From Minisyncoccota bacterium (GTDB taxonomy: Bacteria; Patescibacteriota; Minisyncoccia; Phycocordibacterales; GWA1-40-21), in contig JBBACS010000001.1 in the NCBI GenBank assembly GCA_041656855.1, positions 3,454-67,453 of the forward strand: a stretch of 64,000 bases of DNA. Reading direction: 5' to 3'. Numbering within the stretch: position 1 is the first letter of the stretch; every line of letters begins with the position of its first letter. Under the pieces are notes generated by a model, which made no database searches, had not been told where the DNA came from, and was given only the letters and a program-made list of their open reading frames with translations. A program made the translations under genes and the position numbers. Below, piece after piece: positions 22,442-58,538 of the stretch.

Positions 22442-22714
22442 CTATAGATTATCTATTCCATTCCCTAGATTATCAAAATTCATAGAAGTAGCTGTATTTT
22501 CTATATCTACAATCTCATCTGAAAGCGTAGAGCTACTTTGTTCCATCGCAGCTTTAAATTCTCTGCTTTTTTCTATTCTTTGATTAATAAAATAAAAAGC
22601 TCCGACAAGAAGTACTATGACCACGAGAATGATTCCTATTATTGCTCCAAGGTCTTCTGTTTTTTTGTCTGTCATGTTTTTATTAATTATTTGTGCTTGT
22701 TGAAACTGTATCAC
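22442..22714 (-). CDS. small membrane protein (likely start ATG 22675, MTDKKTEDLG...)
   Basis: One TM helix; the listed start overlaps the upstream gene by 32 nt. Confidence 0.55.
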   Translation of the reverse strand: MIQFQQAQIINKNMTDKKTEDLGAIIGIILVVIVLLVGAFYFINQRIEKSREFKAAMEQSSSTLSDEIVDIENTATSMNFDNLGNGIDNL

Positions 22715-28000: not shown

Positions 28001-28837
28001 TCGGTTATTTATGCCGGTGGCAAATTTATTGCTTCTGGGCAAATCTCATCTGGCGATAGTATAACTTTGGTTTCAACAGATGGTATAAATTGGTCAAATT
28101 TTCCGGGTTTAACACCAGATCACTGTTTTAATCAACTCGCTTACGGAAATAATTCAATTGTTGGTGTTGGATGTAATACATTAACTACAGGAGTAGCTAC
28201 CACTAAATTTGGCTCAATTTCTTCAGGTAATCTCACCATCCCTACCACATTTTCTATTCACTGTACGAATAGTACAGGCGGGGTTCGAGATGATTCCGTA
28301 GAGGTTGGAATTTCTGGACCAGAATCACCTATTATTGGTTCAGAAGGTCGCACTATTGCTACTACAACTGAGGGAAATGAGATTGCCTGGACAGCTCTAC
28401 CAGATGATAAATGTACTTTATCAAAAAATGACGGTGCTTCAATAGACTTGCCTGGAGCTGCTGGTGGAACAATAGATGTGTTAGATACAGAAAGAGCAAC
28501 TGGTATGAAATATGACATGGTATGTATGAATGATTCTATTCCTTACGGGGTACAATTGATTGTACCTGGAATCTGCGCCCATTCTCAAGGAGGAGATACT
28601 GCTAATGTTTATGTAAATAGAAACACTATATGGACAAACTTGGGAATGTCAGGAAGTACTGTGTGGAGTGGTACAAATATAGCAGGCACCCCAAATGTAA
28701 ATCCATTAAATAAAATCTATACAACGGTGGGCCCAAAATCTATTCATGCTGAAACTACTGTTGGTGGAAAAGTTGTTTCAAGATGTGATGCCAATTTTAC
28801 TGTAAAGTTGGATAAGGGAACGAATACGGAGATATAA
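25022..28837 (+). CDS. giant surface protein (Ig-like N-terminal part, internal TM, C-terminal propeller-like repeats)
   Basis: Signal peptide; TM at about aa 395-415 followed by a second signal-peptide-like segment; repeats AYGNG.FVAVG / W..; single continuous ORF. Confidence 0.7.
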   Translation: MKKIFISLLSVFVLGAVFCNVASAQTVESISYTVATVNIYNSKIVSSNDRNYKISFDLSNDSGVQSQIRYSVQLTKTVSSSSDVVVDEKIYDPIFSIDEKTTIPQSVVYSIPSSLGKGDYKLWVYSKNNNGLILAAAYVGEIKLTTDLPNTVEIIPESCYVTIKNNANSSKYYLGDLASIVSKDSLVMNCSVSNRYTSDVSLVPLFETRVRSMYGETVSQIEGTQGTITIKKGKNNIEVALPKALVPQTYVNVFSLVSDDKKISTNNIITTYSLEGESGSIMNAVFDKTSYKKGEIANVKIFSMLELSGSTSTASTASISVSVTNQENRLCSEVIKKDASTAPVVEIPVPVIEDCVNPKANIILSSTNTNGENLALDTQSFDVTTPKKDIPIDYKQIAIASVIFILLIIILTIIYRRKNVSVIKVLALFIICAGFMLGMTNKAEALTEYIKYQTSNKSDDNCYYNMADCYMNFTYNLNKASTDFYLPGESIIVTGIVGGGKADTPSLNPAGRQYHTVYMKDLKIDSSSDQRILVQSDVQGPWDKCSDNWNRSFPNKTGTQTFTAPSTPGVHNMNVTYYNNFSWLSYGLFCITGQTQNSTNIFATRSLPFTVKDIITPTYSLDFHLSKDPSYIGEVEGNTVTVSLYTTNVSNGTLVPYTITGVSQADIGVPLSGHFTAVTNNYYSELQIPILTDNITEGQEKLVLSVGNTQGGFTILDKIVVSADISANPNPVLAGSSSTISWTSTGFDSCTMTNENTGSLLNNLSWTSIPNAVGYVSKAITYGNGLFVAVEDNHYINPIRGAIMTSPDGLTWTARTSPTTNVLYSVAYGNGRFVAVGVGNKIITSTNGIDWVATPGPIEQTSTTWVSVTYGPLLWVAIGGAGQSMTSSDGLTWKSQGNGMRYGLEAVIYGAGFVAVGEGGVQTSLNGLNWTTQTPAVSAHWNSVAYSPTGTVRYVAVSYGGKIMTAPVSGNVWTLRNTPVTFDPSDLGTNYLSSVIYAGGKFIASGQISSGDSITLVSTDGINWSNFPGLTPDHCFNQLAYGNNSIVGVGCNTLTTGVATTKFGSISSGNLTIPTTFSIHCTNSTGGVRDDSVEVGISGPESPIIGSEGRTIATTTEGNEIAWTALPDDKCTLSKNDGASIDLPGAAGGTIDVLDTERATGMKYDMVCMNDSIPYGVQLIVPGICAHSQGGDTANVYVNRNTIWTNLGMSGSTVWSGTNIAGTPNVNPLNKIYTTVGPKSIHAETTVGGKVVSRCDANFTVKLDKGTNTEI

Positions 28838-29181: not shown

Positions 29182-30948
29182 ATGATATTAGAAAGCAAAC
29201 AGCTCAAAGATTTTTTAATAGATACAGGTCTTGTAACTAAGACCGAGTATGATGATATAGAAAATTTTATAAAAAAAGGCAAAAAAAAAGATTCTCCTGA
29301 AAAAGTTTTGGTAAGTCAAGGAAAAATTTCTGAAGATGATTTGCGCAGAGCACAAGCTTATGTGTTTGGTATACCTTTTGTAGATTTAAGAAATCAGAAA
29401 ATTGATTTTGCTGTTTTATCTCTAATTCCTGAACCTCTCGCTCGTAAAAACAATATAATTGCATTTAAGAAAAATGCCGATTCTCTTGAAGTTGCGATGC
29501 TAGATATTAATGATTTGCCGGCTATTGAATTTATAAAAAAGAAAGTTGGATTAAAAATTTTACCAAGGCTTACTGATTCAGTATCTATAAAAGGAGCTAT
29601 GCTTCAATATCAAAAAAGTTTGAAAGCAGAGTTTGGTGATTTGATACAAAAAGACGTCCAAGCTCTTAAAAATTCTGGCCATCTAGAAATAGGAATAAAA
29701 GATGAGACAATAGAGGAGTCATTGAAGAAAATGGCAGAAGACCTTCCAGTTGTTCGTATTGTGGAAACACTTCTTAAACATGCTGCATTACAAAATGCTT
29801 CTGATATTCACATAGAGGTTATGGAAAATGACGTACTCATTAGATATAGAATTGATGGAATCCTACATGATGCCATGGTTCTACCAAAAAATGCGGCAAC
29901 AAGCATTACCGCTAGAATAAAAGTTCTTTCAAATCTAAAGCTTGATGAAAAAAGATTGCCTCAAGATGGAAGATTCAAGATTGATATAAATGGAGAAAAG
30001 GTTTCATTTAGAGTTTCTGTCATTCCTACATATTTTGGGGAGAAAACCGTCATGAGATTGCTTCGAGAAAATGTTGGATCATATTCTTTGGAATCTATGG
30101 GTTTCCACGGGACAAATTTAGAAAGAATTCACGAGGCGATTAAAAAGGCAAATGGAATGATTCTCACAACTGGTCCTACGGGTTCTGGTAAAACAACAAC
30201 TCTTTATACAATTTTGGAATTATTAAATTCTGCTGATGTAAATATCGCCACCATTGAAGACCCTATTGAATATCAGGTAGCTAGAATAAATCAAACCCAA
30301 GTAAAGCCCGAAATTGGTTTCACTTTTGCAAATGGTCTGCGTTCTTTAGTCAGGCAGGATCCAGATATAATAATGGTAGGAGAAATTAGAGATAATGAAA
30401 CAGCATCTCTAGCGGTTAACGCAGCTCTTACAGGGCACATGGTGCTTTCAACTTTGCACACAAATTCTTCTGCGGGTGCTATTCCAAGACTTATGGATAT
30501 GAAAATAGAGCCGTTTCTTCTTGTTTCTACTATTAATATTATTTTGGCCCAGAGACTTATTAGAAAACTTACAAAAGAAAAAGAAAAATATCTTTTATCT
30601 AAAGCGGAATTATTATCCTTGGGGAGAATTGTAGATTTAAATAAAGTTTTAGAGACATTGAAAGCAGAAAATATAGTAGGAAAAGATGATACTTGGGAAA
30701 ATATTTATTTTTATAAAGCGAAAGAATCTATAGAATCAAAAGATGGTTATTCAAGCAGAATTGGTATTCACGAAATACTTAAGATGACCCCATCAATAAG
30801 AGACCTTGTCATGAAAGGCTCTACATCACAAGAGATAGAAGCACAGGCAAAAAAAGAAGGTATGCTGTCTATGATTGAAGATGGAATATTTAAATGTGTT
30901 ACAGGCATGACAACAATAGAAGAAGTGTTAAGGGTTGTTTCAGAATAA
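29182..30948 (+). CDS. pilB: type IV pilus assembly ATPase PilB/GspE family, paralogue 2
   Basis: T2SSE N-domain, Walker A GPTGSGKTT, DPDIIMVGEIRD, GHMVLSTLHTN; no tetracysteine motif. Confidence 0.9.
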   Translation: MILESKQLKDFLIDTGLVTKTEYDDIENFIKKGKKKDSPEKVLVSQGKISEDDLRRAQAYVFGIPFVDLRNQKIDFAVLSLIPEPLARKNNIIAFKKNADSLEVAMLDINDLPAIEFIKKKVGLKILPRLTDSVSIKGAMLQYQKSLKAEFGDLIQKDVQALKNSGHLEIGIKDETIEESLKKMAEDLPVVRIVETLLKHAALQNASDIHIEVMENDVLIRYRIDGILHDAMVLPKNAATSITARIKVLSNLKLDEKRLPQDGRFKIDINGEKVSFRVSVIPTYFGEKTVMRLLRENVGSYSLESMGFHGTNLERIHEAIKKANGMILTTGPTGSGKTTTLYTILELLNSADVNIATIEDPIEYQVARINQTQVKPEIGFTFANGLRSLVRQDPDIIMVGEIRDNETASLAVNAALTGHMVLSTLHTNSSAGAIPRLMDMKIEPFLLVSTINIILAQRLIRKLTKEKEKYLLSKAELLSLGRIVDLNKVLETLKAENIVGKDDTWENIYFYKAKESIESKDGYSSRIGIHEILKMTPSIRDLVMKGSTSQEIEAQAKKEGMLSMIEDGIFKCVTGMTTIEEVLRVVSE

Positions 30949-31463: not shown

Positions 31464-32669
31464 ATGAAGTTTAAATTTAAAGCAATAAAAAAGAATGGTG
31501 ATAAATATATTGGGACAAAAGAATCCAATGATAAATTTTCTTTATATGAAGAGCTGAAATCTGAAGGCAATACACTAATCTCCGCTTCTGAAATAACAAA
31601 GTCAAGATTTGAAATCGATCTTCCTTTTATAAATTCTGTTCCAGAACATCAAAAAATAATTTTTGCTAAAAATTTGGGCTTAATGATAAAAGCGGGTCTT
31701 CCACTCGCTAAAGGATTGGACATTTTAGAAAAACAGATTACTAATAAAAGATTTAAAAAAATCATTGAATTATTACAGGCGGAAATTAGGAAAGGTAATC
31801 CTCTGAGTGAAGCCTGCTCTGCATATCCAGAAGTTTTTCCAAAATTATTTGTATCTATGGTCAGGGCTGGAGAAGAATCTGGTAAACTTTCTGAATCATT
31901 ACAGATTGTTGCAAATCAAATGGATGGAAGTTACAAACTTAAGGAAAAAATAAAGGGTGCGATGGTATATCCTGGAGTTATTGTTTCTATCATGATTATT
32001 ATAGGTGTACTTATGCTAGTCTATGTTGTTCCTGGCATTACAGCCACTTTCAAAGATTTAAAAGTAGAGTTGCCGTTACTTACTAGAATTTTAATCAATA
32101 CAAGTGATTTCTTAAAAAATAATATTCTTTTGTGTTTATTTGCGGTTATTTTAATTATTATTTCTTTTTATTTCTTTATTCGTTCAAAACCGGGTAAAAG
32201 AGTTTTTGATTTGGTCGTTTTAAAACTTCCTGTTATCGGCGATCTTGTAAGAGAAACAAATTCTGCCAGGATTACAAGGACAATCTCCTCACTTTTGTCT
32301 TCAGGAGTTGCTTATGCAGAAGCTATATCTATTACCAGAGATGTCGTTCAAAATGAATATTTTAAAGATGTCTTAACTACTGCAATAAGTACTGTAGAAA
32401 AAGGAGGAACTATATCTAGTGTATTTATGAAAAATGTAAAATTATGCCCTATATTTGTAACCGAAATGATGGTAGTAGGAGAGGAAACAGGAAGTCTCCC
32501 TTCTACGCTTATGGAAGTGGCCACTTTTTATGAGGAATCTATTGATCAAAAGACAAAAAATATGTCCACAATAATTGAGCCGGTGCTTATGGTAATCATT
32601 GGAGTTGCTGTAGGATTTTTTGCACTGGCTATGATTAAGCCGATTTATTCTTTAATGGATTCAATATAG
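31464..32669 (+). CDS. pilC: type IV pilus platform protein PilC/GspF family
   Basis: 401 aa, two T2SSF repeats, three TM helices. Confidence 0.85.
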   Translation: MKFKFKAIKKNGDKYIGTKESNDKFSLYEELKSEGNTLISASEITKSRFEIDLPFINSVPEHQKIIFAKNLGLMIKAGLPLAKGLDILEKQITNKRFKKIIELLQAEIRKGNPLSEACSAYPEVFPKLFVSMVRAGEESGKLSESLQIVANQMDGSYKLKEKIKGAMVYPGVIVSIMIIIGVLMLVYVVPGITATFKDLKVELPLLTRILINTSDFLKNNILLCLFAVILIIISFYFFIRSKPGKRVFDLVVLKLPVIGDLVRETNSARITRTISSLLSSGVAYAEAISITRDVVQNEYFKDVLTTAISTVEKGGTISSVFMKNVKLCPIFVTEMMVVGEETGSLPSTLMEVATFYEESIDQKTKNMSTIIEPVLMVIIGVAVGFFALAMIKPIYSLMDSI

Positions 32670-32704
32670 AAAATTCAAAATATAAAATTAAATTAATCTA
32701 TAAA

Positions 32705-33169
32705 ATGTGGAGGAACTCAAAAAAACAAACTTACAATCAAGGATTTTCTATTTTAGAATTGGTAATTGTCTTAGCAGTAATTTCTATATTAGTTTCAATG
32801 ATTGTTCCATCTTTCGGCAAAGTCGGAGGCAGTGAAGCTTTGGATACAACAACCGTGTCTATAATTGCTGTTTTGAATGAAGCAAAGTCACAGGCGGTTT
32901 CTTCTCAAAATGCTACATCATCTGGCGTTAGGATTTTTAATAACAAATTAGTTTCCTTCAAAGGTAATTATGGAAATTTAAATAAAGAGACTAGTTTATC
33001 AAATCTTATAGGTATCAGTACTTCAACCGGGTTAGGAGCTGATATAATTTTTTCAAATGTGACTGGTGAATCAAACGCTAGTGGCACGATTACTATTACT
33101 GTTTTGAGAGAACCAACAAAAACTAATACGATAAGAATATATTCTACAGGAGTAATAGAAAAAAATTAA
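32705..33169 (+). CDS. prepilin-type N-terminal cleavage/methylation domain protein (pilin)
   Basis: NQG-FSILELVIVLAVISIL: Gly-1, Phe+1, Glu+5. Confidence 0.85.
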   Translation: MWRNSKKQTYNQGFSILELVIVLAVISILVSMIVPSFGKVGGSEALDTTTVSIIAVLNEAKSQAVSSQNATSSGVRIFNNKLVSFKGNYGNLNKETSLSNLIGISTSTGLGADIIFSNVTGESNASGTITITVLREPTKTNTIRIYSTGVIEKN

Positions 33170-33171
33170 TC

Positions 33172-33217
33172 TCGTCGCGCTTAAATGACGGTTGCGCGAC
33201 GTGATTTCGCAAAATCA
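33172..33217 (+). repeat. family C two-hairpin motif, copy C3
   Basis: TCGTCGCGCTTAAATGACGGTTGCGCGACGTGATTTCGCAAAATCA; perfect 8-bp stem CGTCGCGC/GCGCGACG. Confidence 0.85.
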
Positions 33218-33223
33218 ACCTGT

Positions 33224-33324
33224 CCCGTGTGAAATTCATCGGATGTAATATAAAGTTTCGTAAGAATAAGAATAAAAAATATAAAATGTTAAAAAGTATC
33301 AATAATTTAAAATTTCTTTGCGGG
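33224..33324 (+). repeat. leader inverted repeat (family A' subtype, 101 nt); 3' arm abuts ATG 33325
   Basis: CCCGTGTGAAATTC ... AAAATTTCTTTGCGGG-ATG; near-identical arms at 45892-45991 (minus). Confidence 0.8.
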
Positions 33325-33822
33325 ATGAAAATCAATTTTAAAAAAGGTTCAGGACTGGTTGAGATTCTTGTTGCCGTTTTTGTATTTTCTATAGTTTTGG
33401 GTTCACTCATTACAGCTAGCAGCATGTATCTTTCAGGAGCTTCAGATAATCTAAAATCTGCTAAAGGCGCATATCTTGCACAGGAGGGGATAGAAGCTGT
33501 AAAAATAATACGAGACAGAAGCTGGACTAATATAAGCAGTCTTTCAACTAGCACGGATTATTATTTATATTGGAATACGTCTTCATCTACCAATAATACC
33601 TGGTCAACAACCACAACAGTTTCTGTTATTGATAATATTTTTTTTAGAACATTTAAAGTATATCCAGTTTATAGAAATTCAGATGGAGATTCTACAACAA
33701 CTCCAACTGTAAATTTTAATTTAGATAATCATACTAAAAAGGTCACAGTATCAGTTTCTTGGAAGTCAAAAACAGCAACTACAACAAAAAAATTATCAAC
33801 ATATATTGCTGACATTATTTAA
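33325..33822 (+). CDS. prepilin-type pseudopilin (listed ORF starts at GTG 33229; ATG 33325 preferred)
   Basis: MKINFKKG-SGLVEILVAVFVFSIVLG (Glu+5); the start is supported by the leader element ending at 33324. Confidence 0.75.
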   Translation: MKINFKKGSGLVEILVAVFVFSIVLGSLITASSMYLSGASDNLKSAKGAYLAQEGIEAVKIIRDRSWTNISSLSTSTDYYLYWNTSSSTNNTWSTTTTVSVIDNIFFRTFKVYPVYRNSDGDSTTTPTVNFNLDNHTKKVTVSVSWKSKTATTTKKLSTYIADII

Positions 33823-34341
33823 ATGAATAATAAAATTATAAAACAGAATAATAATTTAGGTTTTACCCTCGTTGAGATGATGATATACGTGGCTCTTATG
33901 ACAATTATTACTCTTGTTGTAGTTCAGTCATTAATCGTCGTTTTAAAATCAAACAGAACTTCTTTTGCTGAAATAAATCTTAGAAATGCTGGATATTCTG
34001 CAATGGAGAGTATGCTTAGAGAAATATATGCATCAGATAGTATAACTACAGCTTCTGGCATACTGCAGATGAATCAAGGAACAAACATAGTTAAGTTTGC
34101 CACATCAACTTTATCTTCTGCTAGCACAACCTTATATTTTTATGAAGGAGTTGGAACTCCAGTTCCAACAATAGGCCCGCTTACTTCTAAAAGTGTTTTA
34201 GTAAAAAGTTTAACTTTTACAAAAATCAGTACAGGAAAGTCATATGCAGTAAAAATTCAAATGGGATTAGAAACTACTGTGAATGGGATAACAAAAAGCG
34301 AGACATTCCAATCAACAGCAATATTAAGAGGTTCTTATTAA
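33823..34341 (+). CDS. prepilin-type pseudopilin
   Basis: NLG-FTLVEMMIYVALMTII, canonical G/F...E motif. Confidence 0.8.
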   Translation: MNNKIIKQNNNLGFTLVEMMIYVALMTIITLVVVQSLIVVLKSNRTSFAEINLRNAGYSAMESMLREIYASDSITTASGILQMNQGTNIVKFATSTLSSASTTLYFYEGVGTPVPTIGPLTSKSVLVKSLTFTKISTGKSYAVKIQMGLETTVNGITKSETFQSTAILRGSY

Positions 34342-37378: not shown

Positions 37379-38833
37379 ATGTCTGATTCACTCTCAAAAA
37401 AATTCTATATAACGACAACCTTGCCGTATGTGAATTCTGATCCACATATTGGTTTTGCTATGGAAATTATTCGTGCGGACATGATAGCTCGTTATAAAAA
37501 GATTCAAGGATTTGATGTATTTTTTAATACTGGTACAGATGAACATGGTTTAAAAATTTTTAGAAATTCAGAAGTGAGAGGGATAAGCCCACAAAAATAT
37601 GTTGATGAGTATGCTGACAAATTTAAAGTGCTGATTCCTCTTCTTGGAATATCCAAAGATGTTGTTTTTACAAGAACTACAGATGAACACCATATAAAAT
37701 CAGCTCAGGCATTTTGGAAAGTTTGTAATGATAACGGTTTTATATACAAAAAGAATTACACTATAAATTATTGTGTAGGTTGTGAGCTTGAAAAAGCAAA
37801 TTCAGAACTAGTAAACGGATGCTGTCCTCTTCATCCAAATACAGAAATCGAACATATAAATGAAGAAAATTATTTCTTTAAGTTTTCATCTTTTCAATTC
37901 AAACTTTCAGAATTATATAAAAATCATCCAGAGTTTGTCATACCAAAACATAGACTAAATGAAATAGATGCATTTGTTGAAAGAGGATTGCAAGATTTTA
38001 GTATTTCACGATTAAAGTCAAAAATGCCGTGGGGAATAGAAGTGCCTGGGGACTCAACTCAAGTAATGTATGTTTGGTTTGATGCGCTTGTAAATTACAT
38101 TTCTGCTATTGGCTGGCCGGATGATTTGAAAAAATTTGATAAATGGCAGAGAGAAACAGGTGGAATGGTTCAATATTGCGGAAAGGACAATCTTCGTCAA
38201 CAAGCGGGAATGTGGCAAGCAATGCTTATGGCTGCAGATTTGCCTCATTCAAAAACAATCATCATCGATGGTTTTGTTACGGGTGCTGGGGGAATAAAAA
38301 TGAGTAAAAGTCTTGGAAATACGATAGATCCAAATGAAATTGTTGCCGAATATGGTACAGATGCTTTGAGATATTACGTTGCACGCGAGATTGCTCCTTT
38401 TGAAGATTCTCCATTTACAAAAGAAATGTTTAAGGATGCTTATAATGCAAACTTGGCAAATGGTCTTGGAAATTTAGTTTCAAGAGTGATGACGATGGCA
38501 CAGAATAATCTAGAAAAAGCAGTAAAAGTTGAAAAAAATCTTTTGGCAGAAGTCTTTAAATTTGAAATAGAAAAATATAATTTACAAAAAGCCACAGACA
38601 TAGTTTTTGAAAAAGTTAAAGAACTGGATGCAAAAATCCAAACAACCCAGCCTTTCAAACTTATAAAGACAGACAAAGAAAGAGCAATTGAAATAATAAA
38701 AGAATTGGTACAGGGAGTTTATGAAATAGCTGTTCACTTAGAAGCTATTCTCCCAGAGACCTCAGAGAAAATTAAACAACTTGTAAAAGAAAATAAAAAA
38801 CCAGATATTCCTTTGTTTGTAAGAAAAGACTAG
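37379..38833 (+). CDS. metG: methionyl-tRNA synthetase
   Basis: PYVNSDPHIGF (HIGH-type), KMSKSLGN, Cys-rich zinc knuckle. Confidence 0.9.
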   Translation: MSDSLSKKFYITTTLPYVNSDPHIGFAMEIIRADMIARYKKIQGFDVFFNTGTDEHGLKIFRNSEVRGISPQKYVDEYADKFKVLIPLLGISKDVVFTRTTDEHHIKSAQAFWKVCNDNGFIYKKNYTINYCVGCELEKANSELVNGCCPLHPNTEIEHINEENYFFKFSSFQFKLSELYKNHPEFVIPKHRLNEIDAFVERGLQDFSISRLKSKMPWGIEVPGDSTQVMYVWFDALVNYISAIGWPDDLKKFDKWQRETGGMVQYCGKDNLRQQAGMWQAMLMAADLPHSKTIIIDGFVTGAGGIKMSKSLGNTIDPNEIVAEYGTDALRYYVAREIAPFEDSPFTKEMFKDAYNANLANGLGNLVSRVMTMAQNNLEKAVKVEKNLLAEVFKFEIEKYNLQKATDIVFEKVKELDAKIQTTQPFKLIKTDKERAIEIIKELVQGVYEIAVHLEAILPETSEKIKQLVKENKKPDIPLFVRKD

Positions 38834-49131: not shown

Positions 49132-50838
49132 GTGATTAAAAACATACTAGAAAATTCAATAAAGACCGCGCTTTGGTCTCTCAAGATAGATGAAAAGAAA
49201 GTTTCTAAGATAAATTTGGAACATCCAGAGGAACTATCTCATGGAGATTATTCTTGTAATATCGCGATGATTCTTGCAAAACAAGTTGCTCAAAATCCGC
49301 GAGAACTTGCAGAAAAGATTGTTGCAGAAATAAATGAAAGAAAACCAGAAGAGATTTCAAGAGTAGAAGTTGCCGGTCCCGGATTTATAAACTTTTATTT
49401 GTCTTCTGAATTTTTTGTTAATGAAAGTAAAGAAATACTTTGTGACTGTAATGATTTTGGTAGAAGCAAGATTGGAGAAGGAAAGAAGGTAGTTGTTGAA
49501 TATTCTTCTCCGAACATCGCAAAGCCATTTACTATTGGGCACTTGCGCTCAACTGTTATAGGCGATGCCATTGCAAACATTTTAGATTACTCAGGATATA
49601 AAGTAATCCGTGACAATCACTTGGGAGATTGGGGAACACAGTTTGGTAAGCTTATTGTAGCTATAAAAACTTGGTCATCACTTGATAAAATAAAAAAATC
49701 AAAACAACCTATAAAAGATTTGGTAGATTTGTATGTAAAATTTCATGATGAAGCAGAAAAAGATTTAGCTTTAGATAATGAGGCTCGAGATTGGTTTACA
49801 AAGCTTGAAAAAAATAATAAAGAAGCAAAAAATATATGGAATGTATGTGTAAAGCTTTCAATGAAAGAATTTGAAAAAATATATAAACGCCTTGGGGTAA
49901 AATTTGATACTGCATATGGTGAAAGTTACTTTGAAAAGAAAATGCAAGAGGTTTTGAAAGATATAAATAAACTAAATCTTGCAAAGGAGAGTGAAGGAGC
50001 ATACCTGGTATTTTTCAAAGATGATAAATATCCTCCGATGATGCTTTTGAAAAAAGATGGCTCAACAATATATGCTCTTCGTGATTTAGCTACGGATAAA
50101 TTTAGAAAGGAGAAGTATGGAAAAGATGTCGTAATCATAAATGAAGTTGGAATGGAACAGAGTTTGCACTTCGAACAGATTTTTGAGACGGAAAGATTGC
50201 TTGGATATTCAAATGGTGCAGACAGAATACATGTTAAACATGGTTTTTATCGTTTTCCAGAAGGTAAGATGAGTACGAGAAAGGGAAATGGTATCTGGCT
50301 AGATGAAGTTCTTGATGAAGCAGTCGTAAAAGCTGCAGCGTTTGATAAAAATACAGCAGAGGTAGTTGGAATCGGTGCAATAAAGTTTAACGATCTAAAA
50401 AGAGAAAGTTCAAAAGATATAATTTTTAATTGGGATGAGATATTAAACTTGAAAGGGGATTCAGGACCATATTTACAATATTCATATGCCCGTGCGAAAT
50501 CTATTTTGAGAAAAGCTAAAGAGGATGGTGTAAAAGCTAAAGTTAACCCCAGTCAAATGAAAAGCCAATTTGACGGGGCGAGTATTACAATACTCGAAAA
50601 ATTACTTTATAGATTTCCTGAGGTTGTGGAAAGGGCAGGAGCTGAATATTCACCACACTACATTGCAACTTATCTTATTGAGCTTGCCTCATCATTTAAT
50701 AATTTTTACGGACAAGGAAAGATTGTAGATAAAACAGATGCAAATTCCCCATACAAAGTTGCACTTACAGAAGCTTTCTCAATTGTTTTGAAAAATGGAC
50801 TTAATCTTTTGGGTATTTCCGCTCCAGAAAAAATGTGA
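49132..50838 (+). CDS. argS: arginyl-tRNA synthetase (GTG start)
   Basis: SSPNIAKPFTIGHLRS, MSTRKG, DALR anticodon-binding C-terminus. Confidence 0.9.
   Translation: MIKNILENSIKTALWSLKIDEKKVSKINLEHPEELSHGDYSCNIAMILAKQVAQNPRELAEKIVAEINERKPEEISRVEVAGPGFINFYLSSEFFVNESKEILCDCNDFGRSKIGEGKKVVVEYSSPNIAKPFTIGHLRSTVIGDAIANILDYSGYKVIRDNHLGDWGTQFGKLIVAIKTWSSLDKIKKSKQPIKDLVDLYVKFHDEAEKDLALDNEARDWFTKLEKNNKEAKNIWNVCVKLSMKEFEKIYKRLGVKFDTAYGESYFEKKMQEVLKDINKLNLAKESEGAYLVFFKDDKYPPMMLLKKDGSTIYALRDLATDKFRKEKYGKDVVIINEVGMEQSLHFEQIFETERLLGYSNGADRIHVKHGFYRFPEGKMSTRKGNGIWLDEVLDEAVVKAAAFDKNTAEVVGIGAIKFNDLKRESSKDIIFNWDEILNLKGDSGPYLQYSYARAKSILRKAKEDGVKAKVNPSQMKSQFDGASITILEKLLYRFPEVVERAGAEYSPHYIATYLIELASSFNNFYGQGKIVDKTDANSPYKVALTEAFSIVLKNGLNLLGISAPEKM
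50546..50578 (+). repeat. 33-nt family B palindromic element inserted in frame in argS
   Basis: ACCCCAGTCAAATGAAAAGCCAATTTGACGGGG; encodes PSQMKSQFDGA. Confidence 0.9.
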
Positions 50839-50997: not shown

Positions 50998-51033
50998 TTC
51001 CCTTTTTCCATTTAATTGATAACATATAATAAT

Positions 51034-54000
51034 ATGACTGAAAATAGTAAAGAAAAGCTTGTACTAAAAAATAAAGTTGCCGAAAGAGAAGAAGAAATAT
51101 TAAAATTTTGGCAAGAAAAAGAAATTTTCAAAAAAACTTTAGAAAAACCAGCTCCAAATGGTGAATTTGTATTTTATGATGGGCCTCCTTTTGCAACAGG
51201 GCTTCCACACTTTGGTCATATTTTGCCCGGAACAATGAAAGATTATATGGGTAGATATGAGACCATGAAAGGTAAGCATGTCTCTAGGAGATGGGGTTGG
51301 GATACACACGGTCTTCCTATAGAAAATATTGTTGAAAAAGAGATGGGTTTCAAATCTAAGAAAGACATTGAGGATTTTGGTCTTGAAGAATTTAATGATA
51401 TTGCAAGAAGCAAGGTTTTTACATATGTAGATGAATGGAAAAAAATAGTTCCAAGGCTTGGACGCTTTGTTGATATGGAAAATGATTACAGAACTCTAAA
51501 CCCATCTTATACAGAAACTGTTTGGTGGATTTTCAAGGAATTACATAAAAAAGGTTTAGTTTATGAAGGTTTTAAATCTATGCATCTTTGTCCTCATTGT
51601 GGAACAACCCTTTCCAATTTTGAAGTTGGACAAGGATATAAAGATATCACTGATATTTCTGTTACGGTCAAATTTGAGCTTGTAGATGAGCCAGGAACAT
51701 ATTTCCTTGCTTGGACCACAACACCATGGACACTTCCTGGAAACGTGGCTCTTGCAGTAAATCCAGATATTGATTATGTAAAAATAAAAGTAGGTAATAT
51801 TAAATTAATTTTAGCTGAATTAAGACTTTCAGTAATTAAAGAGCCTTATGATATTGTAGAAAAAGTAGAAGGTAATGCTTTGGTTGGTTTGTCATATAAA
51901 CCTATCTTTGATTATTATAATAATGATGATTTAAAGAATAAAGAGAACGGTTTTAAAGTTTATGACGCAGCTTTTGTAACAACAGAAGATGGTACGGGTA
52001 TAGTTCATATTGCCCCTGCATTTGGAGAAGATGATATGAATCTTGGCAAAGAAAAAAAGTTGCCATTTATACAACATGTAACAGTTGATGGAAGATTTAA
52101 AACCGAAGTCGAAGATTTTGCTGGTCAAAAAGTAAAGCCGATAGAAAATTCGCAACTTGCAGATATTGAAATAATAAAATATTTAGCTGGAAAAGGAACA
52201 CTTTATGCAAAAGAAAAATTTATACACTCATACCCACATTGTTATAGGTGTGACACTCCACTTTTAAACTACGCAGCAAGTTCCTGGTTTGTAGAAGTAA
52301 CAAAATTTAAGGATAAACTTGTAGAAGCAAATAAAAAAATAAAGTGGGTTCCAAAAGAAGTTGGAGAAGGGAGATTTGGTAAGTTGCTTGAAGGAGCTCC
52401 AGATTGGGCTATTTCAAGAAGCAGATTTTGGGGTGCACCTCTTCCAGTATGGAAATGTTCTTGTTGTCCAGTAAAAGAATTTATTGGTTCAATAGATGAA
52501 ATAAAAGAAAGAACAAAAAGCACAAATAAATTTTTGGTAGTTAGACATGGAGAAGCCAAAAGTAATGTATTGGATATTCTCAGTTCAAATCCAAAGACTG
52601 TGAATCATCTTACAGAAAAAGGAAGAGAACAAGCTGTGGAAGCTTCAAAAAATCTTAAAGATAAAGTGGATATTATTTACTGTTCTCCTTTTATGAGAAC
52701 AAAAGAAACTGCAGATATAATTGCTGAAAATATTGGATATCCTAAAGACAAAATTCTTTATGATGATAGACTTCATGAAATAAATGGAGGAGAAATGGAT
52801 GGAAGACCTGATCCGGAATATCAAGCATTTTTTACGAATAGGAAAGAAAAATTCTTTAGATCTCCAAAAGGCGGAGAAACATATACAGATGCAAAAAAGA
52901 GAATGACAGATTTTTTGTATGATATAGATAAAAAATATGAAGGAAAAAATATTTTGATTGTTTCCCATAATACTCCAATATGGCTAATGTTTTCAGGCGC
53001 ACTCGGGCTTAATAGAGAACAAACGCTTGCGACAAGAGTAGCTGGTACCCCTTTTATTCACAATTCGGAAATAAAAGAAATTCCTTTTGCACCAATTCCG
53101 CATAACAGAGAATATGAACTTGATATGCATAGACCTTTCATTGATGAAATTACTTTGAAATGTCCTTGTGGGGGAGATATGAAAAGAATTCCTGAAGTAT
53201 TTGATTGCTGGTTTGAGTCAGGTTCTATGCCTTACGCTCAAGTTCATTATCCTTTTGAAAATTTAGACAAATTTAATCCAGAAAAAGGAATTGGTTTTCC
53301 AGCAGATTTTATTGCAGAAGGGGTTGATCAGACAAGAGGCTGGTTTAATTCATTGTTAATTATTGGAATAGCACTATTTGATAAATCTCCATATAAAAGC
53401 GTTGCAACAAACGGCATACTTCTTGCTGAGGATGGACAAAAAATGTCAAAACATTTGAAGAATTATTCCGATCCTATGGGGGTTGTTGATATGTATAGTG
53501 CTGATGCAATGAGATATTATCTTTTATCTTCTTCAGCGACTAGAGCAGAAGACCTAAAATTTTCAAATAAGGGCGTTGATGAAGTTTTGAAGAAAATAAT
53601 TATGAGATTACAAAATGTTTATACATTCTTTGAAATGTATGGAGGTTTTGATTTAGATTTGACAAAAAAGGATGAATACAAAAAACCAAAAAATATTTTG
53701 GATAAATGGATTCTCGCAAGATTGAAAGAGACTGCAACTCAAATAACAAAAGCTACTGATGGGCATGAGTTTGATCGTGCAACTAGACCTATTGGAGACT
53801 TTGTTGATGACCTTTCCACATGGTATTTGAGAAGATCTCGCGATAGATTCAAGTCTGAAGATGTCCCCGATAGAAATTCTGCGATGTTCACTACGAGGAC
53901 TGTAATATTAGAGTTTTCAAAACTTTTGGCACCGGGAATGCCTTTCTTGGCTGAAGATTTATATTTAAAAATCACTGGAGGAATGGAAAAGGAGAGTGTA

Positions 54001-54540
54001 CATTTGGAAAATTGGACAGAAGAATTTGTTGGAGAACTTTCTGCTGAAGAAACTGAAGTTTTAGAAAAAATGAGAGAAACGAGAATCATAGTTTCTGTCG
54101 GACTTGAGGCTCGCGCAAAAGCAGGTATAAAAGTCAGACAGCCTCTTGCTAGCTTGAAAGTTAAAAGTGTGAAGCTTATGGGCAGTGAAGAATATTTGGA
54201 ACCCATTAAAGATGAAGTAAATGTTAAAGAAGTAATTTTTGAAGAAATGATTGCTGGAGATGTGGAACTCGATACTGTTCTTACAGAAAGATTGAAAGAT
54301 GAAGGTGCAAGCAGAGATATTATAAGGGCAATACAGGAAATGAGAAAAAATAAAAAACTAAATCCGTCTGATCAAGTTGAACTTTTTGTTGAAACGAGCG
54401 ATGATGGAAAAGAATTGATAAATAAGTTCTATAATGAAATTTCAAAAGTTGCTGGACTAAAATCGATATCTTTCAAAGAGTTTAAAGAAGGGGAAGTAGT
54501 TGAATTGGAAACTATGAAGTTTAAAATTCATATAAAATAA
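51034..54540 (+). CDS. ileS: isoleucyl-tRNA synthetase (type 2-like) with an embedded histidine-phosphatase domain (listed ORF starts at TTG 51016)
   Basis: PHFGH (HIGH), editing CP1 region, DMHRPFID, CWFESGSMPYA, KMSKH. Confidence 0.9.
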   Translation: MTENSKEKLVLKNKVAEREEEILKFWQEKEIFKKTLEKPAPNGEFVFYDGPPFATGLPHFGHILPGTMKDYMGRYETMKGKHVSRRWGWDTHGLPIENIVEKEMGFKSKKDIEDFGLEEFNDIARSKVFTYVDEWKKIVPRLGRFVDMENDYRTLNPSYTETVWWIFKELHKKGLVYEGFKSMHLCPHCGTTLSNFEVGQGYKDITDISVTVKFELVDEPGTYFLAWTTTPWTLPGNVALAVNPDIDYVKIKVGNIKLILAELRLSVIKEPYDIVEKVEGNALVGLSYKPIFDYYNNDDLKNKENGFKVYDAAFVTTEDGTGIVHIAPAFGEDDMNLGKEKKLPFIQHVTVDGRFKTEVEDFAGQKVKPIENSQLADIEIIKYLAGKGTLYAKEKFIHSYPHCYRCDTPLLNYAASSWFVEVTKFKDKLVEANKKIKWVPKEVGEGRFGKLLEGAPDWAISRSRFWGAPLPVWKCSCCPVKEFIGSIDEIKERTKSTNKFLVVRHGEAKSNVLDILSSNPKTVNHLTEKGREQAVEASKNLKDKVDIIYCSPFMRTKETADIIAENIGYPKDKILYDDRLHEINGGEMDGRPDPEYQAFFTNRKEKFFRSPKGGETYTDAKKRMTDFLYDIDKKYEGKNILIVSHNTPIWLMFSGALGLNREQTLATRVAGTPFIHNSEIKEIPFAPIPHNREYELDMHRPFIDEITLKCPCGGDMKRIPEVFDCWFESGSMPYAQVHYPFENLDKFNPEKGIGFPADFIAEGVDQTRGWFNSLLIIGIALFDKSPYKSVATNGILLAEDGQKMSKHLKNYSDPMGVVDMYSADAMRYYLLSSSATRAEDLKFSNKGVDEVLKKIIMRLQNVYTFFEMYGGFDLDLTKKDEYKKPKNILDKWILARLKETATQITKATDGHEFDRATRPIGDFVDDLSTWYLRRSRDRFKSEDVPDRNSAMFTTRTVILEFSKLLAPGMPFLAEDLYLKITGGMEKESVHLENWTEEFVGELSAEETEVLEKMRETRIIVSVGLEARAKAGIKVRQPLASLKVKSVKLMGSEEYLEPIKDEVNVKEVIFEEMIAGDVELDTVLTERLKDEGASRDIIRAIQEMRKNKKLNPSDQVELFVETSDDGKELINKFYNEISKVAGLKSISFKEFKEGEVVELETMKFKIHIK
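52531..53040 (+). other. inserted histidine phosphatase (PGAM-like, branch 1) domain within ileS
   Basis: Ordered motifs VVRHGEAKSN (RHG 52543-52551), CSPFMRTKETA, HEINGGEMDG, LIVSHNTPI (His 52966-52968). Confidence 0.75.
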
Positions 54541-54614: not shown

Positions 54615-55199
54615 ATGCATCACATTTATACTACCAAAGCTATAATCATAAAAAGTGTTCCTATTGGAGAGGCAAATAAATATTACTTTTTACTTACAGA
54701 AGATTTAGGCTTTGTAAGGGCTAGTGCACAGAGTGTTCGCTTGGAAAAATCAAAGTTGAAAGGGCACTTGCAGGATTTTTGTTTTATTGAAGTATCTCTG
54801 GTAAAAGGAAAAGATATTTGGCGTATTATAGGTGTTGAAACTATACAGTCTGGGTATTTTATAAATAATATAAATAAACTTGTCGCAATTAAAAATATAT
54901 TTTCTTTGCTTCTCAGATTGCTTCATGGGGAGGAAAAAAATGAGCTTCTTTTTAATAGTATTAAGTCTTTTTATGATTTTTTGCTAAAGGATGAATTGTC
55001 ACAAAATAATATAAAAAATCTAGAAACAATCACGGTACTCAGAATCTTATATCATCTAGGCTATTTTAAAAAGTCTTTTGATTTGTCTGATTATGTTATG
55101 GACGATAAATTATCAATAGAGATATTAGATTTATTTGAATCAAAGAATAAAATTGCAATTTTGGATATAAATAATGCGCTTAATGAAACCCATTTGTAA
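54615..55199 (+). CDS. recO: DNA repair protein RecO (short form)
   Basis: N-terminal OB-fold pattern (TKAIIIKSVPIGEANKYYFLLTEDLGFVRASAQSVR). Confidence 0.7.
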   Translation: MHHIYTTKAIIIKSVPIGEANKYYFLLTEDLGFVRASAQSVRLEKSKLKGHLQDFCFIEVSLVKGKDIWRIIGVETIQSGYFINNINKLVAIKNIFSLLLRLLHGEEKNELLFNSIKSFYDFLLKDELSQNNIKNLETITVLRILYHLGYFKKSFDLSDYVMDDKLSIEILDLFESKNKIAILDINNALNETHL

Positions 55200-57218: not shown

Positions 57219-58538
57219 ATGAAAAAGGAATCAAACCAAAAAATGGAGAATATAATCTCTCTTTGCAAGAGAAGAGGTTTTATTTTTCAAGGTTCTGAAA
57301 TATATGGAGGACTAGCTGGTACCTGGGACTATGGTCATTTTGGTGTGGCTCTAAAAAACAATATTAAGGCACTTTGGTGGAGAAAGTTTGTCACAGACCG
57401 CGATGATATGTATGGAGTTGATGCAGATATTTTGATGAATCAAAAAGTTTGGCAAGCTACTGGTCATGCTGAAAATTTTTCTGATCCTTTGATAGAATGT
57501 AAGAAATGTAAAAAAAGATTTAGAGCTGATAAAATTACTGATGCAAAAAAGTGTCCTGATTGTGGTGGGGTAATGGGTGAACCGAAACAATTTAATATGA
57601 TGTTTAAAACTCATGTTGGAGCAATAGAGAATACAACATCTATCTCATATCTCAGACCAGAAACTGCTCAAGGTATGTTTGTGAACTACAAAAATGTTAT
57701 TGATGCTTATCATCCAAAACTTTCCTTTGGTATGGCTCAAGTAGGTAAAGCTTTTAGAAACGAAATTTCACCTGGGGATTTTACTTTTCGTTCAAGAGAG
57801 TTTGAACAAATGGAAATTGAATATCTTATTAAACCAGATTCTTGGAAAGAAACTTTTGAACATTTTAGAAAAGAAATGCTTGATTGGACCAAATTGATAG
57901 GTTTGAATCAAAAACATGTTCATGAACACGAGATATCAGATGAAGATAGAGCATTTTATTCTAAAAGAACAATAGATTTTGAATTTGATTTTCCTTTTGG
58001 ACAAGAAGAACTTTACGGTTTAGCTTATAGAACGGATTATGACTTGAAGAGACATTCAGATTTTAGTGGAATCGATTTGAGTTATTTGGATGAAGAAACA
58101 AAAGAGAAATTTATTCCTCATTGTATAGAACCATCTTTTGGTTTGGATAGGTCAGCTCTTGCAGTTCTTTCAGATGCTTACACAGAAGATGAGCTTGGAG
58201 GAGAAAAAAGAATATATATGAAGTTTGCTCCAATAGTTGCTCCAGTAAAAATTGCAGTATTTCCACTTTTAAAAAATAAACCAAATCTTGTAGAAAAGGC
58301 AAAAGAAGTTTACAAAAATTTGAAAAAAGAGTTTGATGCAGTGATGTTTGATGATAATGGAAACATTGGAAAGAGATACAGAAGACAAGATGAAATAGGA
58401 ACTCCATATTGTGTTACTGTAGATTTTGAAACAATAGAGAAAGATAATATGGTTACAGTAAGAGATAGAGATTCAGGAAACCAAGAAAGAGTAAAAATAG
58501 AGGATTTGAATGAGTATTTTGGTAAAAAATTGAAATAA
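57219..58538 (+). CDS. glyQS: glycyl-tRNA synthetase (dimeric class II type)
   Basis: CKRRGFIFQGSEIYGG, class II motifs, Zn-like CKKC...CPDCG, anticodon-binding C-terminus. Confidence 0.9.
   Translation: MKKESNQKMENIISLCKRRGFIFQGSEIYGGLAGTWDYGHFGVALKNNIKALWWRKFVTDRDDMYGVDADILMNQKVWQATGHAENFSDPLIECKKCKKRFRADKITDAKKCPDCGGVMGEPKQFNMMFKTHVGAIENTTSISYLRPETAQGMFVNYKNVIDAYHPKLSFGMAQVGKAFRNEISPGDFTFRSREFEQMEIEYLIKPDSWKETFEHFRKEMLDWTKLIGLNQKHVHEHEISDEDRAFYSKRTIDFEFDFPFGQEELYGLAYRTDYDLKRHSDFSGIDLSYLDEETKEKFIPHCIEPSFGLDRSALAVLSDAYTEDELGGEKRIYMKFAPIVAPVKIAVFPLLKNKPNLVEKAKEVYKNLKKEFDAVMFDDNGNIGKRYRRQDEIGTPYCVTVDFETIEKDNMVTVRDRDSGNQERVKIEDLNEYFGKKLK

What the first reader, a model, noticed from the sequence alone, without database searches (positions are those of the whole stretch)
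52531..53040. Complete histidine-phosphatase (PGAM-like) domain embedded inside isoleucyl-tRNA synthetase
The ileS ORF is continuous (HFGH ... KMSKH). It carries about 190 extra residues (about 506-675 of the listed ORF) between ...CCPVKEFIGSIDEIKERTK and ...YELDMHRPFIDEI. As I recall, type 2 IleRS has only a short linker before the D.HRP motif at that point. The insert has all hallmark motifs of the histidine phosphatase superfamily, in the right order: VVRHGEAKSN (catalytic RHG), CSPFMRTKETA (second Arg), HEINGGEMDG (acidic residue) and LIVSHNTPI (second His). It therefore looks catalytically competent rather than a relic. I know of no aminoacyl-tRNA synthetase with such an embedded domain. 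Possible roles (pure inference): acting on a phosphorylated nucleotide or tRNA end, or on a synthetase side product.
Basis: partly seen in the sequence, partly recalled or inferred. Interest (0 to 1): 0.85.

Follow-up and report, generated by a model that had tools for sequence, protein, structure and literature searches.

The report
Active phosphatase domain inside isoleucyl-tRNA synthetase
The isoleucyl-tRNA synthetase of this tiny-genome (Patescibacteria) bacterium really does carry a complete, apparently working phosphatase enzyme spliced into a surface loop; hundreds of related species share this, it has been mentioned only once in passing, and what the phosphatase does is unknown.

Summary
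The ileS ORF (51016/51034-54540, +) is continuous. It holds a Pfam His_Phos_1 domain (aa 507-674, E=7e-34) in the loop between the two Cys knuckles of a type-2 IleRS. The catalytic residues R510, H511, R561, E588 and H651 are invariant in 61/61 full-length proteins. dN/dS is 0.06-0.15, like the synthetase body. The AF2 domain model has pLDDT 94.8 and resembles small-metabolite phosphatases (PspA, PhoE, CobC). New here: in related Parcubacteria without the insert, the same phosphatase is a free gene 1-4 nt upstream of ileS (57 of 80 loci), and the two states exclude each other. Other CPR lineages carry the domain at three other IleRS sites, in ValRS (up to 4 copies) and on TsaC. An SR1 IleRS split by PGM domains was noted in one sentence in 2013, so it is not unheard of, but it is uncharacterised. 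The substrate is inferred only. I favour a small phospho-compound tied to adenylate chemistry (0.35). The main rival is an unrelated metabolic phosphatase riding on IleRS (0.3).

The parts
51034..54540 (+). ileS gene encoding a type-2 isoleucyl-tRNA synthetase with an embedded phosphatase. The mechanical ORF starts at TTG 51016; the likely start is ATG 51034.
   Evidence: P0033 is the identical 1168-aa protein. Foldseek best hits are type-2 IleRS 8C9D/8C8V, yeast IleRS and 1ILE.
51208..51219 (+). HIGH-type signature (HFGH, aa 65-68) of the class I active site.
   Evidence: invariant in alignment A4.
51712..51732 (+). WTTTPWT motif (aa 233-239) of the CP1 editing domain, intact.
   Evidence: invariant in A4. 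That this motif marks the editing site is from my knowledge of IleRS.
52456..52467 (+). First Cys knuckle (CSCC, aa 481-484), which bounds the insertion loop.
52468..52533 (+). N-terminal linker (PVKEFIGSIDEIKERTKSTNKF), partly native IleRS loop.
   Evidence: Alignment with insert-less IleRS of L083 and L089.
52534..53037 (+). Histidine phosphatase (His_Phos_1, PF00300) domain, aa 507-674. Catalytic residues: R510-H511-G512 at 52543-52551, R561 at 52696-52698, E588 at 52777-52779, H651 at 52966-52968.
53038..53127 (+). C-terminal end of the insert and linker, with the conserved junction ...EIPFAPIPHNREYELD.
53128..53175 (+). HRPFIDEITLK followed by the second Cys knuckle (CPCGG, aa 716-720), where the IleRS chain resumes.
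53440..53454 (+). KMSKS-type signature (KMSKH, aa 809-813).
53701..54534 (+). Anticodon-binding domain (PF08264, aa 896-1044) and C-terminal DUF5915 domain (aa 1083-1173).
49132..50838 (+). argS, the conserved upstream neighbour. In insert-less relatives the free phosphatase gene lies between argS and ileS.
54615..55199 (+). recO, the conserved downstream neighbour in the same syntenic block.

Best explanation
SHOWN. The gene encodes one polypeptide in which a complete PhoE/PspA-like histidine phosphatase of about 190 residues is inserted into the loop between the two Cys knuckles of a type-2 IleRS. The domain has an intact catalytic set and is under purifying selection. It is the fused form of a conserved two-gene unit of Parcubacteria: a basic free-standing phosphatase gene encoded immediately upstream of ileS. 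The same kind of domain was recruited again at other loops of IleRS, into ValRS and onto TsaC in other CPR lineages. INFERRED (my preferred mechanism). The protein is bifunctional. The IleRS part charges tRNA-Ile normally (HIGH, KMSKS, editing and anticodon modules are all intact). The tethered phosphatase forms a phospho-histidine on H511 and hydrolyses a small phosphorylated compound that is made or bound at the adenylation site. The three hosts all run ATP + substrate -> acyl-AMP + PPi, so the most economical candidates are products or by-products of that chemistry (PPi, AMP or a related nucleotide). Removing them locally would pull or protect the adenylation step. Tethering, not a fixed geometry, is what matters, because several alternative insertion sites, tandem copies and a separate subunit all occur. 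The confidence of 0.35 applies to this inferred mechanism only; I would put about 0.8 on the shown part, an active phosphatase functionally coupled to IleRS.
For: Domain identity and intactness: (R510, H511, R561, E588, H651 invariant in 61/61; about 226-231 domains in long proteins keep them). Selection: dN/dS 0.06-0.15 for the insert against 0.07-0.11 for the rest, and mean pairwise identity 45%, between that of other IleRS domains. Discrete fold: pLDDT 88-94 inside the full-length model and 94.8 alone. Small-metabolite phosphatase neighbours (PspA, PhoE, CobC, GpgP, TIGAR, HFP), with no protein phosphatase among the 50 best listed matches. Coupling to IleRS: the free gene lies 1-4 nt upstream of insert-less ileS; 57 of 80 metagenome loci have ileS immediately downstream and 6 more within 2.5 kb; 0 of 81 fused loci also have a free copy. 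Independent recruitment: four IleRS sites, ValRS with up to 4 copies, and TsaC in 4 clusters. All copies keep the catalytic residues. Common denominator of the hosts: adenylate-forming, PPi-releasing enzymes (established biochemistry of IleRS, ValRS and TsaC).
Against: No member of His_Phos_1 is known to me as a dedicated pyrophosphatase or AMP nucleotidase. No NCBIfam equivalog cut-off is reached, so the substrate class is open. Only IleRS, ValRS and TsaC were seen as hosts, not the other PPi-releasing synthetases, although only the best 150 representatives were visible. RAAC4_OD1, which has the fusion, is reported to encode a membrane pyrophosphatase. Patescibacterial TsaC is fused to many unrelated small enzymes (MGMT, TruB, 2H phosphoesterase, MPG, GNAT, Nudix), so fusion alone is weak evidence of a biochemical link in these genomes. 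Conserved adjacency could partly be inherited synteny. No model coordinates were available, so the distance between the two active sites is unknown.
Confidence: 0.35

Rival explanations
1. Piggy-back metabolic enzyme. The domain is an ordinary housekeeping phosphatase or mutase of central metabolism (for example the phosphoglycerate mutase or phosphoserine phosphatase that seems missing in some Parcubacteria). It first sat in an operon with ileS and was then swallowed by the gene. It works independently of IleRS, and fusion only guarantees co-expression in a streamlined genome.
For: The best NCBIfam hit is archaeal-type dPGM, and the nearest structure is PspA phosphoserine phosphatase. Jaffe et al. 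2020 report recognisable PGM absent from several shallow Parcubacteria clades. Patescibacterial TsaC is fused to a wide range of unrelated enzymes, so promiscuous fusion is a habit of these genomes. IleRS also hosts GNAT and an IS200-like domain. No PGM or other His_Phos gene is present in the 64-kb window.
Against: Scores are far below every equivalog cut-off (dPGM_arch 100 against 225; PspA 65 against 350). The nearest folds are phosphatases, not mutases. The gene is never seen with glycolytic genes in the loci examined, but is tightly coupled to ileS. There are independent insertions at four or more sites in IleRS and in ValRS, and 2-4 copies per protein, which is odd for a single glycolytic step.
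Confidence: 0.3
2. tRNA 3'-end healing. The phosphatase removes a 2'- or 3'-phosphate (left by RNase toxins, or by cyclic-phosphate opening, or added by tRNA-pyrophosphorylating toxins) from the CCA end, so that the tRNA bound to the synthetase can be charged.
For: All hosts belong to tRNA charging or modification. Free-standing forms are strongly basic (pI 9.2-10.0), as expected for binding RNA or an acidic partner, while inserted forms are neutral. TsaC in the same phylum is also fused to 2H cyclic phosphodiesterases, the natural partner of an end-healing phosphatase. The insertion sites lie in the second half of the catalytic domain. That toxSAS enzymes pyrophosphorylate tRNA CCA ends is from my memory of Kurata et al. 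2021.
Against: No histidine phosphatase is known to me to act on RNA ends. The nearest structures are small-metabolite enzymes. A general repair function would fit the CCA-adding enzyme better than IleRS or ValRS alone. TsaC does not itself bind tRNA. High pI is common in small proteins of AT-rich genomes.
Confidence: 0.15
3. Built-in immunity. Together with the GNAT and Nudix domains found in other CPR IleRS, the phosphatase inactivates a natural inhibitor (an aminoacyl-nucleotide mimic or other phosphorylated antibiotic) at the very enzyme it targets.
For: GNAT domains are co-inserted with the phosphatase in P0152 and P0288. The SR1 IleRS carries Nudix plus PGM domains. GNATs are a prevalent immunity mechanism against aaRS-targeting Trojan-horse antibiotics. 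IleRS is a classic antibiotic target (established knowledge).
Against: Known adenylate mimics carry no terminal phosphomonoester for a histidine phosphatase to remove. There is no PADLOC match. The domain is ancient and vertically conserved, not patchy like resistance genes. There is no producer or immunity gene context.
Confidence: 0.1
4. Protein phosphatase. The domain reverses inhibitory phosphorylation of IleRS (as HipA-type kinases do to GltX or TrpS) or of a partner.
For: The superfamily contains protein phosphatases such as SixA, Sts and PGAM5 (established knowledge). There is a weak SixA hit (29-33 bits).
Against: The SixA cut-off is not reached. No protein phosphatase appears among the 50 best listed structural neighbours. 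No kinase was seen in the neighbourhood.
Confidence: 0.05
5. Artefact or relic. The insert is a chimeric assembly join, an intron- or intein-like element that is removed, or a decayed domain used only as a spacer.
For: One syntenic relative (L001) has ileS broken by about nine frameshifts.
Against: The same in-frame insert occurs in 60 full-length ORFs from independent assemblies and in the 120 best database homologs. There are no Rfam hits. The catalytic residues are invariant and dN/dS is about 0.1. The fold prediction is confident.
Confidence: 0.02

Closest known systems
SR1 (Absconditabacteria) and ACD80 'interrupted' IleRS noted by Kantor et al. 2013 (mBio 4:e00708-13, PMC3812714)
   Same: A CPR isoleucyl-tRNA synthetase with phosphoglycerate-mutase-family (His_Phos_1) domains embedded in the chain. 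No function was assigned.
   Different: The SR1 protein was described as split into four regions by one Nudix and two PGM domains. The window's protein has a single domain at one site (between the Cys knuckles), has no Nudix domain, and belongs to the Parcubacteria/Paceibacteria group. I did not retrieve the SR1 protein itself.
PhoE/YhfR broad-specificity phosphatase (1H2E, 1EBB) and PspA phosphoserine phosphatase (4IJ5, 4IJ6)
   Same: The same ~200-residue minimal His_Phos_1 fold (TM about 0.8, rmsd 2.1-2.4 A) with the RHG, Arg, Glu and His catalytic set.
   Different: Only 24-25% identity. Those are free-standing enzymes. The residue after the second His is N, E or D here instead of the usual G. 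The PspA model cut-off is not reached.
Type-2 (eukaryote-like, mupirocin-resistant) IleRS, e.g. Priestia megaterium IleRS2 (8C9D, 8C8V) and Thermus thermophilus IleRS (1ILE)
   Same: The scaffold matches: domain order, HIGH and KMSKS signatures, CP1 editing motif, Cys knuckles, and C-terminal DUF5915-type domain.
   Different: Those enzymes have a short linker between the knuckles, like the insert-less L083 relative. The MupA and MupB resistance models are not reached.
NCBIfam NF040702 'isoleucine--tRNA ligase, N-acetyltransferase domain-containing' and the Patescibacteria IleRS with GNAT inserts (P0152, P0288)
   Same: A precedent for an IleRS carrying an extra enzymatic domain. P0152 and P0288 carry GNAT together with the same phosphatase insert.
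   Different: The window's protein has no GNAT domain and scores 305 against a cut-off of 1999 for NF040702.
Bifunctional RNase H / acid phosphatase (PRK07238; Rv2228c- and SCO2299-type)
   Same: A nucleic-acid enzyme joined to a CobC-like His_Phos_1 domain whose physiological substrate is unclear. It is the second-best NCBIfam hit for the insert.
   Different: That is an end-to-end fusion, not an insertion, and the partner is different. The score is 84 against a cut-off of 326.

Membership tests
Histidine phosphatase superfamily, branch 1 (Pfam PF00300) | HMM match above the gathering threshold | tested here: met
   117.6 bits against 21.7, E=7e-34, profile positions 2-170 of 194.
Histidine phosphatase superfamily, branch 1 (Pfam PF00300) | RHG motif with nucleophilic His, second Arg, acid Glu and second His, in the right order and aligned | tested here: met
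   R510, H511, G512, R561, E588 and H651 are invariant in 61/61 proteins. They align to the PhoE motifs.
Histidine phosphatase superfamily, branch 1 (Pfam PF00300) | Alpha/beta fold of the family | tested here: met
   AF2 pLDDT 94.8 and pTM 0.91. Foldseek TM about 0.8 and rmsd 2.1 A to 4IJ6 and 1H2E. This is a prediction, not an experiment.
Histidine phosphatase superfamily, branch 1 (Pfam PF00300) | Phosphatase activity through a phospho-histidine intermediate | not testable with these tools
   Needs an enzyme assay.
Cofactor-dependent phosphoglycerate mutase (dPGM; NF038349, TIGR01258 and related) | Score above the equivalog cut-off | tested here: not met
   dPGM_arch scores 100-104 against 225. 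Bacterial dPGM models score 17-43 against 305-421. Free-standing relatives also fall below.
Alpha-ribazole phosphatase CobC (TIGR03162) | Score above the equivalog cut-off | tested here: not met
   71-76 bits against 162.9.
Phosphoserine phosphatase PspA (NF045917) | Score above the equivalog cut-off | tested here: not met
   65-69 bits against 350, although it is the closest fold.
Phosphohistidine phosphatase SixA (TIGR00249) | Score above the equivalog cut-off | tested here: not met
   29-33 bits against 74.5.
Isoleucyl-tRNA synthetase (TIGR00392), type 2 | Equivalog score, class I signatures, editing motif, type-2 structural similarity | tested here: met
   874.5 bits against 621.4. HFGH, KMSKH and WTTTPWT are present. 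The best folds are type-2 IleRS 8C9D/8C8V and 1ILE, with type-1 IleRS weaker.
CPR IleRS interrupted by PGM-family domains (Kantor et al. 2013) | His_Phos_1 domain embedded in-frame in IleRS of a CPR bacterium | tested here: met
   The closest relatives are Patescibacteria/Paceibacteria MAGs.
CPR IleRS interrupted by PGM-family domains (Kantor et al. 2013) | Nudix domain and two PGM domains (four IleRS segments) | tested here: not met
   There is one His_Phos_1 stretch and no Nudix hit in the window's protein.
IleRS with GNAT domain (NF040702) | Score above the exception-model cut-off; GNAT domain present | tested here: not met
   305 bits against 1999; no GNAT Pfam hit.

The most novel reading that the evidence does not exclude
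The phosphatase is an integral, previously unrecognised part of tRNA charging in CPR bacteria. It would be an on-board phosphohydrolase that either repairs phosphorylated or pyrophosphorylated tRNA 3' ends (counter-defence against RNase or toxSAS-type toxins) or destroys a phosphorylated inhibitor at the synthetase. In that case IleRS/ValRS plus phosphatase (with GNAT and Nudix in some lineages) would form a new class of self-protecting or self-repairing aminoacyl-tRNA synthetases.
Probability: 0.2. Interest if true: 0.9.

Novelty: new variant of a known kind. Interest (0 to 1): 0.68.

Why it matters
Aminoacyl-tRNA synthetases are among the best-studied enzymes, and I found none with a characterised embedded phosphatase. 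Here an intact phosphatase has stayed coupled to IleRS across hundreds of species, as a neighbouring gene, as a single insert, or as multiple inserts. It was also recruited separately by ValRS and TsaC. That pattern argues for a selected, still unknown link between phosphate-ester hydrolysis and adenylate-forming steps of translation in the CPR, a radiation comparable in scale to all other bacteria. The question is directly testable with recombinant protein. Whatever the answer (product clearing, tRNA-end repair, antibiotic defence, or a 'missing' glycolytic enzyme hiding inside a synthetase), it would change how CPR genomes are annotated. These proteins are now labelled only 'isoleucyl-tRNA synthetase' or 'class I tRNA ligase family protein', and metabolic reconstructions may overlook the domain. 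The permissive loops mapped here are also candidate sites for engineering domain insertions into class Ia synthetases.

Tried and rejected
1. Assembly chimera: rejected, because the insert recurs in independent assemblies.
2. Intron or other RNA element: no Rfam family anywhere in the window.
3. Known defence protein: no PADLOC match for the insert or for the free-standing relatives.
4. Assignment to a specific phosphatase family: no NCBIfam equivalog reaches its cut-off. PDB sequence and fold searches give only generic small-metabolite phosphatases.
5. Domain phylogeny to count insertion events: the neighbour-joining tree was too poorly resolved to use beyond a rough grouping.
6. Inter-domain geometry: model coordinates are not exposed, so the distance and orientation between H511 and the adenylation site could not be measured.
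7. Literature: searches pairing IleRS with histidine phosphatase, or tRNA synthetase, PGM, fusion and Parcubacteria, returned nothing. Searches on CPR pyrophosphatase gave nothing useful. The only relevant text is one sentence in Kantor 2013.
8. Search for a canonical PGM, pyrophosphatase or second His_Phos in the window: none found, but 64 kb is not a genome.
9. Remnant of a free phosphatase gene in the 195-nt argS-ileS spacer: none.
10. The broken ileS of L001: not resolved between assembly error and decay.
Full report
**Observation.** The window carries one uninterrupted ORF at 51016..54540 on the + strand (1174 aa). The identical database protein starts at the ATG at 51034 (1168 aa, P0033). 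Pfam splits tRNA-synt_1 into two stretches (E=2e-131) around a His_Phos_1 match at aa 507-674 (117.6 bits against a 21.7 cut-off, E=7e-34). Anticodon_1 and DUF5915 follow. NCBIfam's ileS equivalog is passed (874.5 against 621.4). They align with the catalytic Arg-His, second Arg, acid Glu and second His of the family. An insert-less relative that is 52% identical outside the insert has about 22 residues between the two Cys knuckles (WRCDKC...ECSCG). The window has about 220 there (CSCC at aa 481-484, CPCGG at 716-720).

**Not an artefact.**
The best 80 all span the domain and the C-terminal junction.
- tblastn of the whole protein gives a single in-frame match across aa ~18-1170 in nearly all of them. 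Sixty are complete single ORFs.
- The 120 best hits in the 5.8-billion-protein collection all carry PF00133 plus PF00300. Their sources name them only 'isoleucyl-tRNA synthetase' or 'class I tRNA ligase family protein'.
- The organisms are Patescibacteria of the Parcubacteria/Paceibacteria group: Nomura-, Taylor-, Wolfe-, Zambryski-, Lloyd- and Vogelbacteria, and RAAC4_OD1_1.
- GC content of the insert (0.29-0.30) lies within the local range. No Rfam family is present in the window.

**Intact and selected.**
- In 61 full-length proteins, R510, H511, G512, R561, E588, E621 and H651 are invariant.
- Across 307 domains the catalytic residues are kept in essentially all long proteins.
- Mean pairwise identity of the insert is 45%. 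That lies between the catalytic core (58-60%) and the C-terminal domain (39%). Insert length stays at 188-200 aa.
- Nei-Gojobori dN/dS for the eight closest pairs is 0.06-0.15 in the insert and 0.07-0.11 elsewhere.
- In the AF2 full-length model the insert is the most confident part (pLDDT 88-94). Alone it reaches pLDDT 94.8 and pTM 0.91.
- Its nearest solved structures are ~200-residue small-metabolite phosphatases: PspA, PhoE, CobC, GpgP Rv2419c, TIGAR and the riboflavin-pathway HFP. TM is about 0.8 at 21-26% identity, and no protein phosphatase appears among the 50 best listed matches.
- No NCBIfam phosphatase or mutase equivalog reaches its cut-off. The domain is a member of the superfamily but of no characterised subfamily.
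- The scaffold is a type-2 IleRS (best folds 8C9D/8C8V, yeast IleRS, 1ILE).

**What comparison adds.**
1. The closest free-standing relatives (190-196 aa, 40-47% identical) are encoded immediately upstream of an insert-less ileS. The gaps are 4 nt and 1 nt. The synteny is the same as in the window: argS, phosphatase, ileS, recO.
2. A metagenome scan seeded with free-standing proteins returned 80 loci. In 57, ileS follows directly. In 6 it lies 0.8-2.5 kb downstream. Five are the inserted form, 5 are cut by the contig end, and 7 show no ileS in the available flank. argS is upstream in nearly all.
3. None of the 80 fused loci, nor the window, has a second phosphatase region nearby. Free gene and insert are therefore alternative states of one unit, a Rosetta-stone relationship.
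4. Among the best 150 representatives of 1.84 billion clusters, about 87 are IleRS with the domain at the window's site A (aa ~503/691). Other lineages, including Peregrinibacteria, carry it elsewhere: site B (~716-722), site C (~745-760) and site D (~879-892), in combinations of two or three per protein.
5. ValRS also carries it. One case is at the equivalent of site C. Another has four copies, three of them in tandem at the equivalent of site A.
6. A TsaC (threonylcarbamoyl-AMP synthase) fusion recurs in four clusters.
7. Every copy retains the catalytic residues.
8. Free-standing forms are strongly basic (pI 9.2-10.0), while inserted ones are near neutral (median 6.6).

**Caution.** Fusion is common in these genomes. 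Patescibacterial TsaC is also fused to MGMT (the majority), TruB, 2H phosphoesterase, MPG glycosylase, GNAT and Nudix. Some IleRS also carry GNAT or an IS200-like domain. Fusion by itself is therefore weaker evidence of a biochemical link here than in other bacteria.

**Prior knowledge.** Kantor et al. [quoted passage not shown] I found no other mention and no functional study. The architecture has therefore been seen but not characterised. As far as the searchable literature shows, the following are new: the single-insert Parcubacteria form, the gene-neighbour state, the multiple sites, and the ValRS and TsaC hosts.

**Mechanism.**
- Shown: an intact, selected PhoE/PspA-like phosphatase, physically or genetically coupled to IleRS.
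- Inferred: its substrate.
- My preference (0.35) is a small phosphorylated compound linked to adenylate chemistry (PPi, AMP or a related nucleotide). The three hosts share only the reaction ATP -> acyl-AMP + PPi. The nearest folds act on small metabolites. The variety of sites, copy numbers and the separate-subunit state suggests that proximity, not a fixed geometry, is what is selected.
- The main rival (0.3) is an unrelated metabolic phosphatase or mutase riding on IleRS. It is kept alive by the general fusion habit and by the report that recognisable PGM is absent from several shallow Parcubacteria clades.
- tRNA 3'-end healing (0.15) fits the basic free form and the TsaC-2H phosphoesterase fusions.
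- Built-in antibiotic immunity (0.1) fits the co-inserted GNAT domains and the tiarin and microcin C precedent.
- A protein-phosphatase role (0.05) and artefact or relic (0.02) are unlikely.
- None of these can be settled without enzyme assays and whole-genome phyletic profiles.

**Verdict.** The finding is real and correctly read. It is widespread in CPR bacteria rather than unique, and it has been noted once in the literature without explanation. It is a well-defined, testable puzzle at the heart of translation.

Noticed in passing
L001:4300-7900 (733-kb contig, syntenic with window 48-59 kb): In this close relative (78% nt identity) ileS is broken by about nine out-of-frame indels. All lie in the C-terminal 2 kb, beginning at the first Cys knuckle. 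The N-terminal 489 aa and the neighbouring argS, recO and other genes are intact. This is either local long-read assembly error or real decay of the gene.
   Followed up: partly
P0152 (1325 aa) and P0288 (1066 aa), Patescibacteria IleRS: These IleRS carry further inserted domains besides the phosphatase. P0152 has a RimJ/RimL-type GNAT in the CP1 region. P0288 has an IS200-like Y1 transposase domain at aa 340-461 and a GNAT after the phosphatase region.
   Followed up: partly
P0168, P0272 and P0300 (ValRS); P0169, P0241, P0243, P0290 and P0298 (IleRS; P0298 and its full-length cluster member P0306 are annotated Peregrinibacteria): His_Phos_1 domains occur in ValRS (up to four copies, three in tandem) and at three other IleRS sites in other CPR lineages. 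All copies have intact catalytic residues. The P0241 form occurs on contigs up to 1.06 Mb.
   Followed up: yes
P0242 and P0307-P0423: Patescibacterial TsaC (YrdC domain) is fused to a remarkable range of small enzymes: MGMT DNA-binding domain (the majority), TruB, 2H cyclic phosphodiesterase, MPG glycosylase, GNAT, Nudix and His_Phos.
   Followed up: no
Free-standing phosphatases P0010-P0017 compared with inserts in L003-L082: Free-standing ileS-adjacent phosphatases are strongly basic (pI 9.2-10.0), while the inserted domains are near neutral (median pI 6.6). The residue after the second catalytic His is mostly G in free forms but N, E or D in inserted forms.
   Followed up: partly
window 1-64000: No Rfam family (tRNA, rRNA, riboswitch or other) reaches its gathering score anywhere in the 64 kb. 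The window nevertheless encodes five aminoacyl-tRNA synthetases: TyrRS 4211-5425, MetRS 37379-38833, ArgRS 49132-50838, IleRS, and a class II enzyme at 57219-58538.
   Followed up: no
window 25022-28837 (+), 15062-16045 (+), 16198-17061 (+), 22683-23366 (-): A 1271-aa ORF and several mid-sized ORFs have no Pfam match at E<=1e-4. The 22683-23366 (-) ORF overlaps a 190-aa ORF on the opposite strand (22693-23265).
   Followed up: no
window 13171-14940 (-), 29182-30948 (+), 31464-34341 (+): There are two PilB-like T2SSE ATPases, a PilC-like T2SSF protein and two proteins with the pilin N-methylation motif (32705-33169, 33823-34341), flanking an ORF without a Pfam match (33229-33822). This is a type IV pilus set typical of episymbiotic CPR bacteria.
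   Followed up: no
window 52269-52559 (-), 52645-52968 (-), 53739-54206 (-): Antisense ORFs of 96-155 aa lie inside ileS. They are low-complexity and most likely spurious products of the AT-rich sequence.
   Followed up: no
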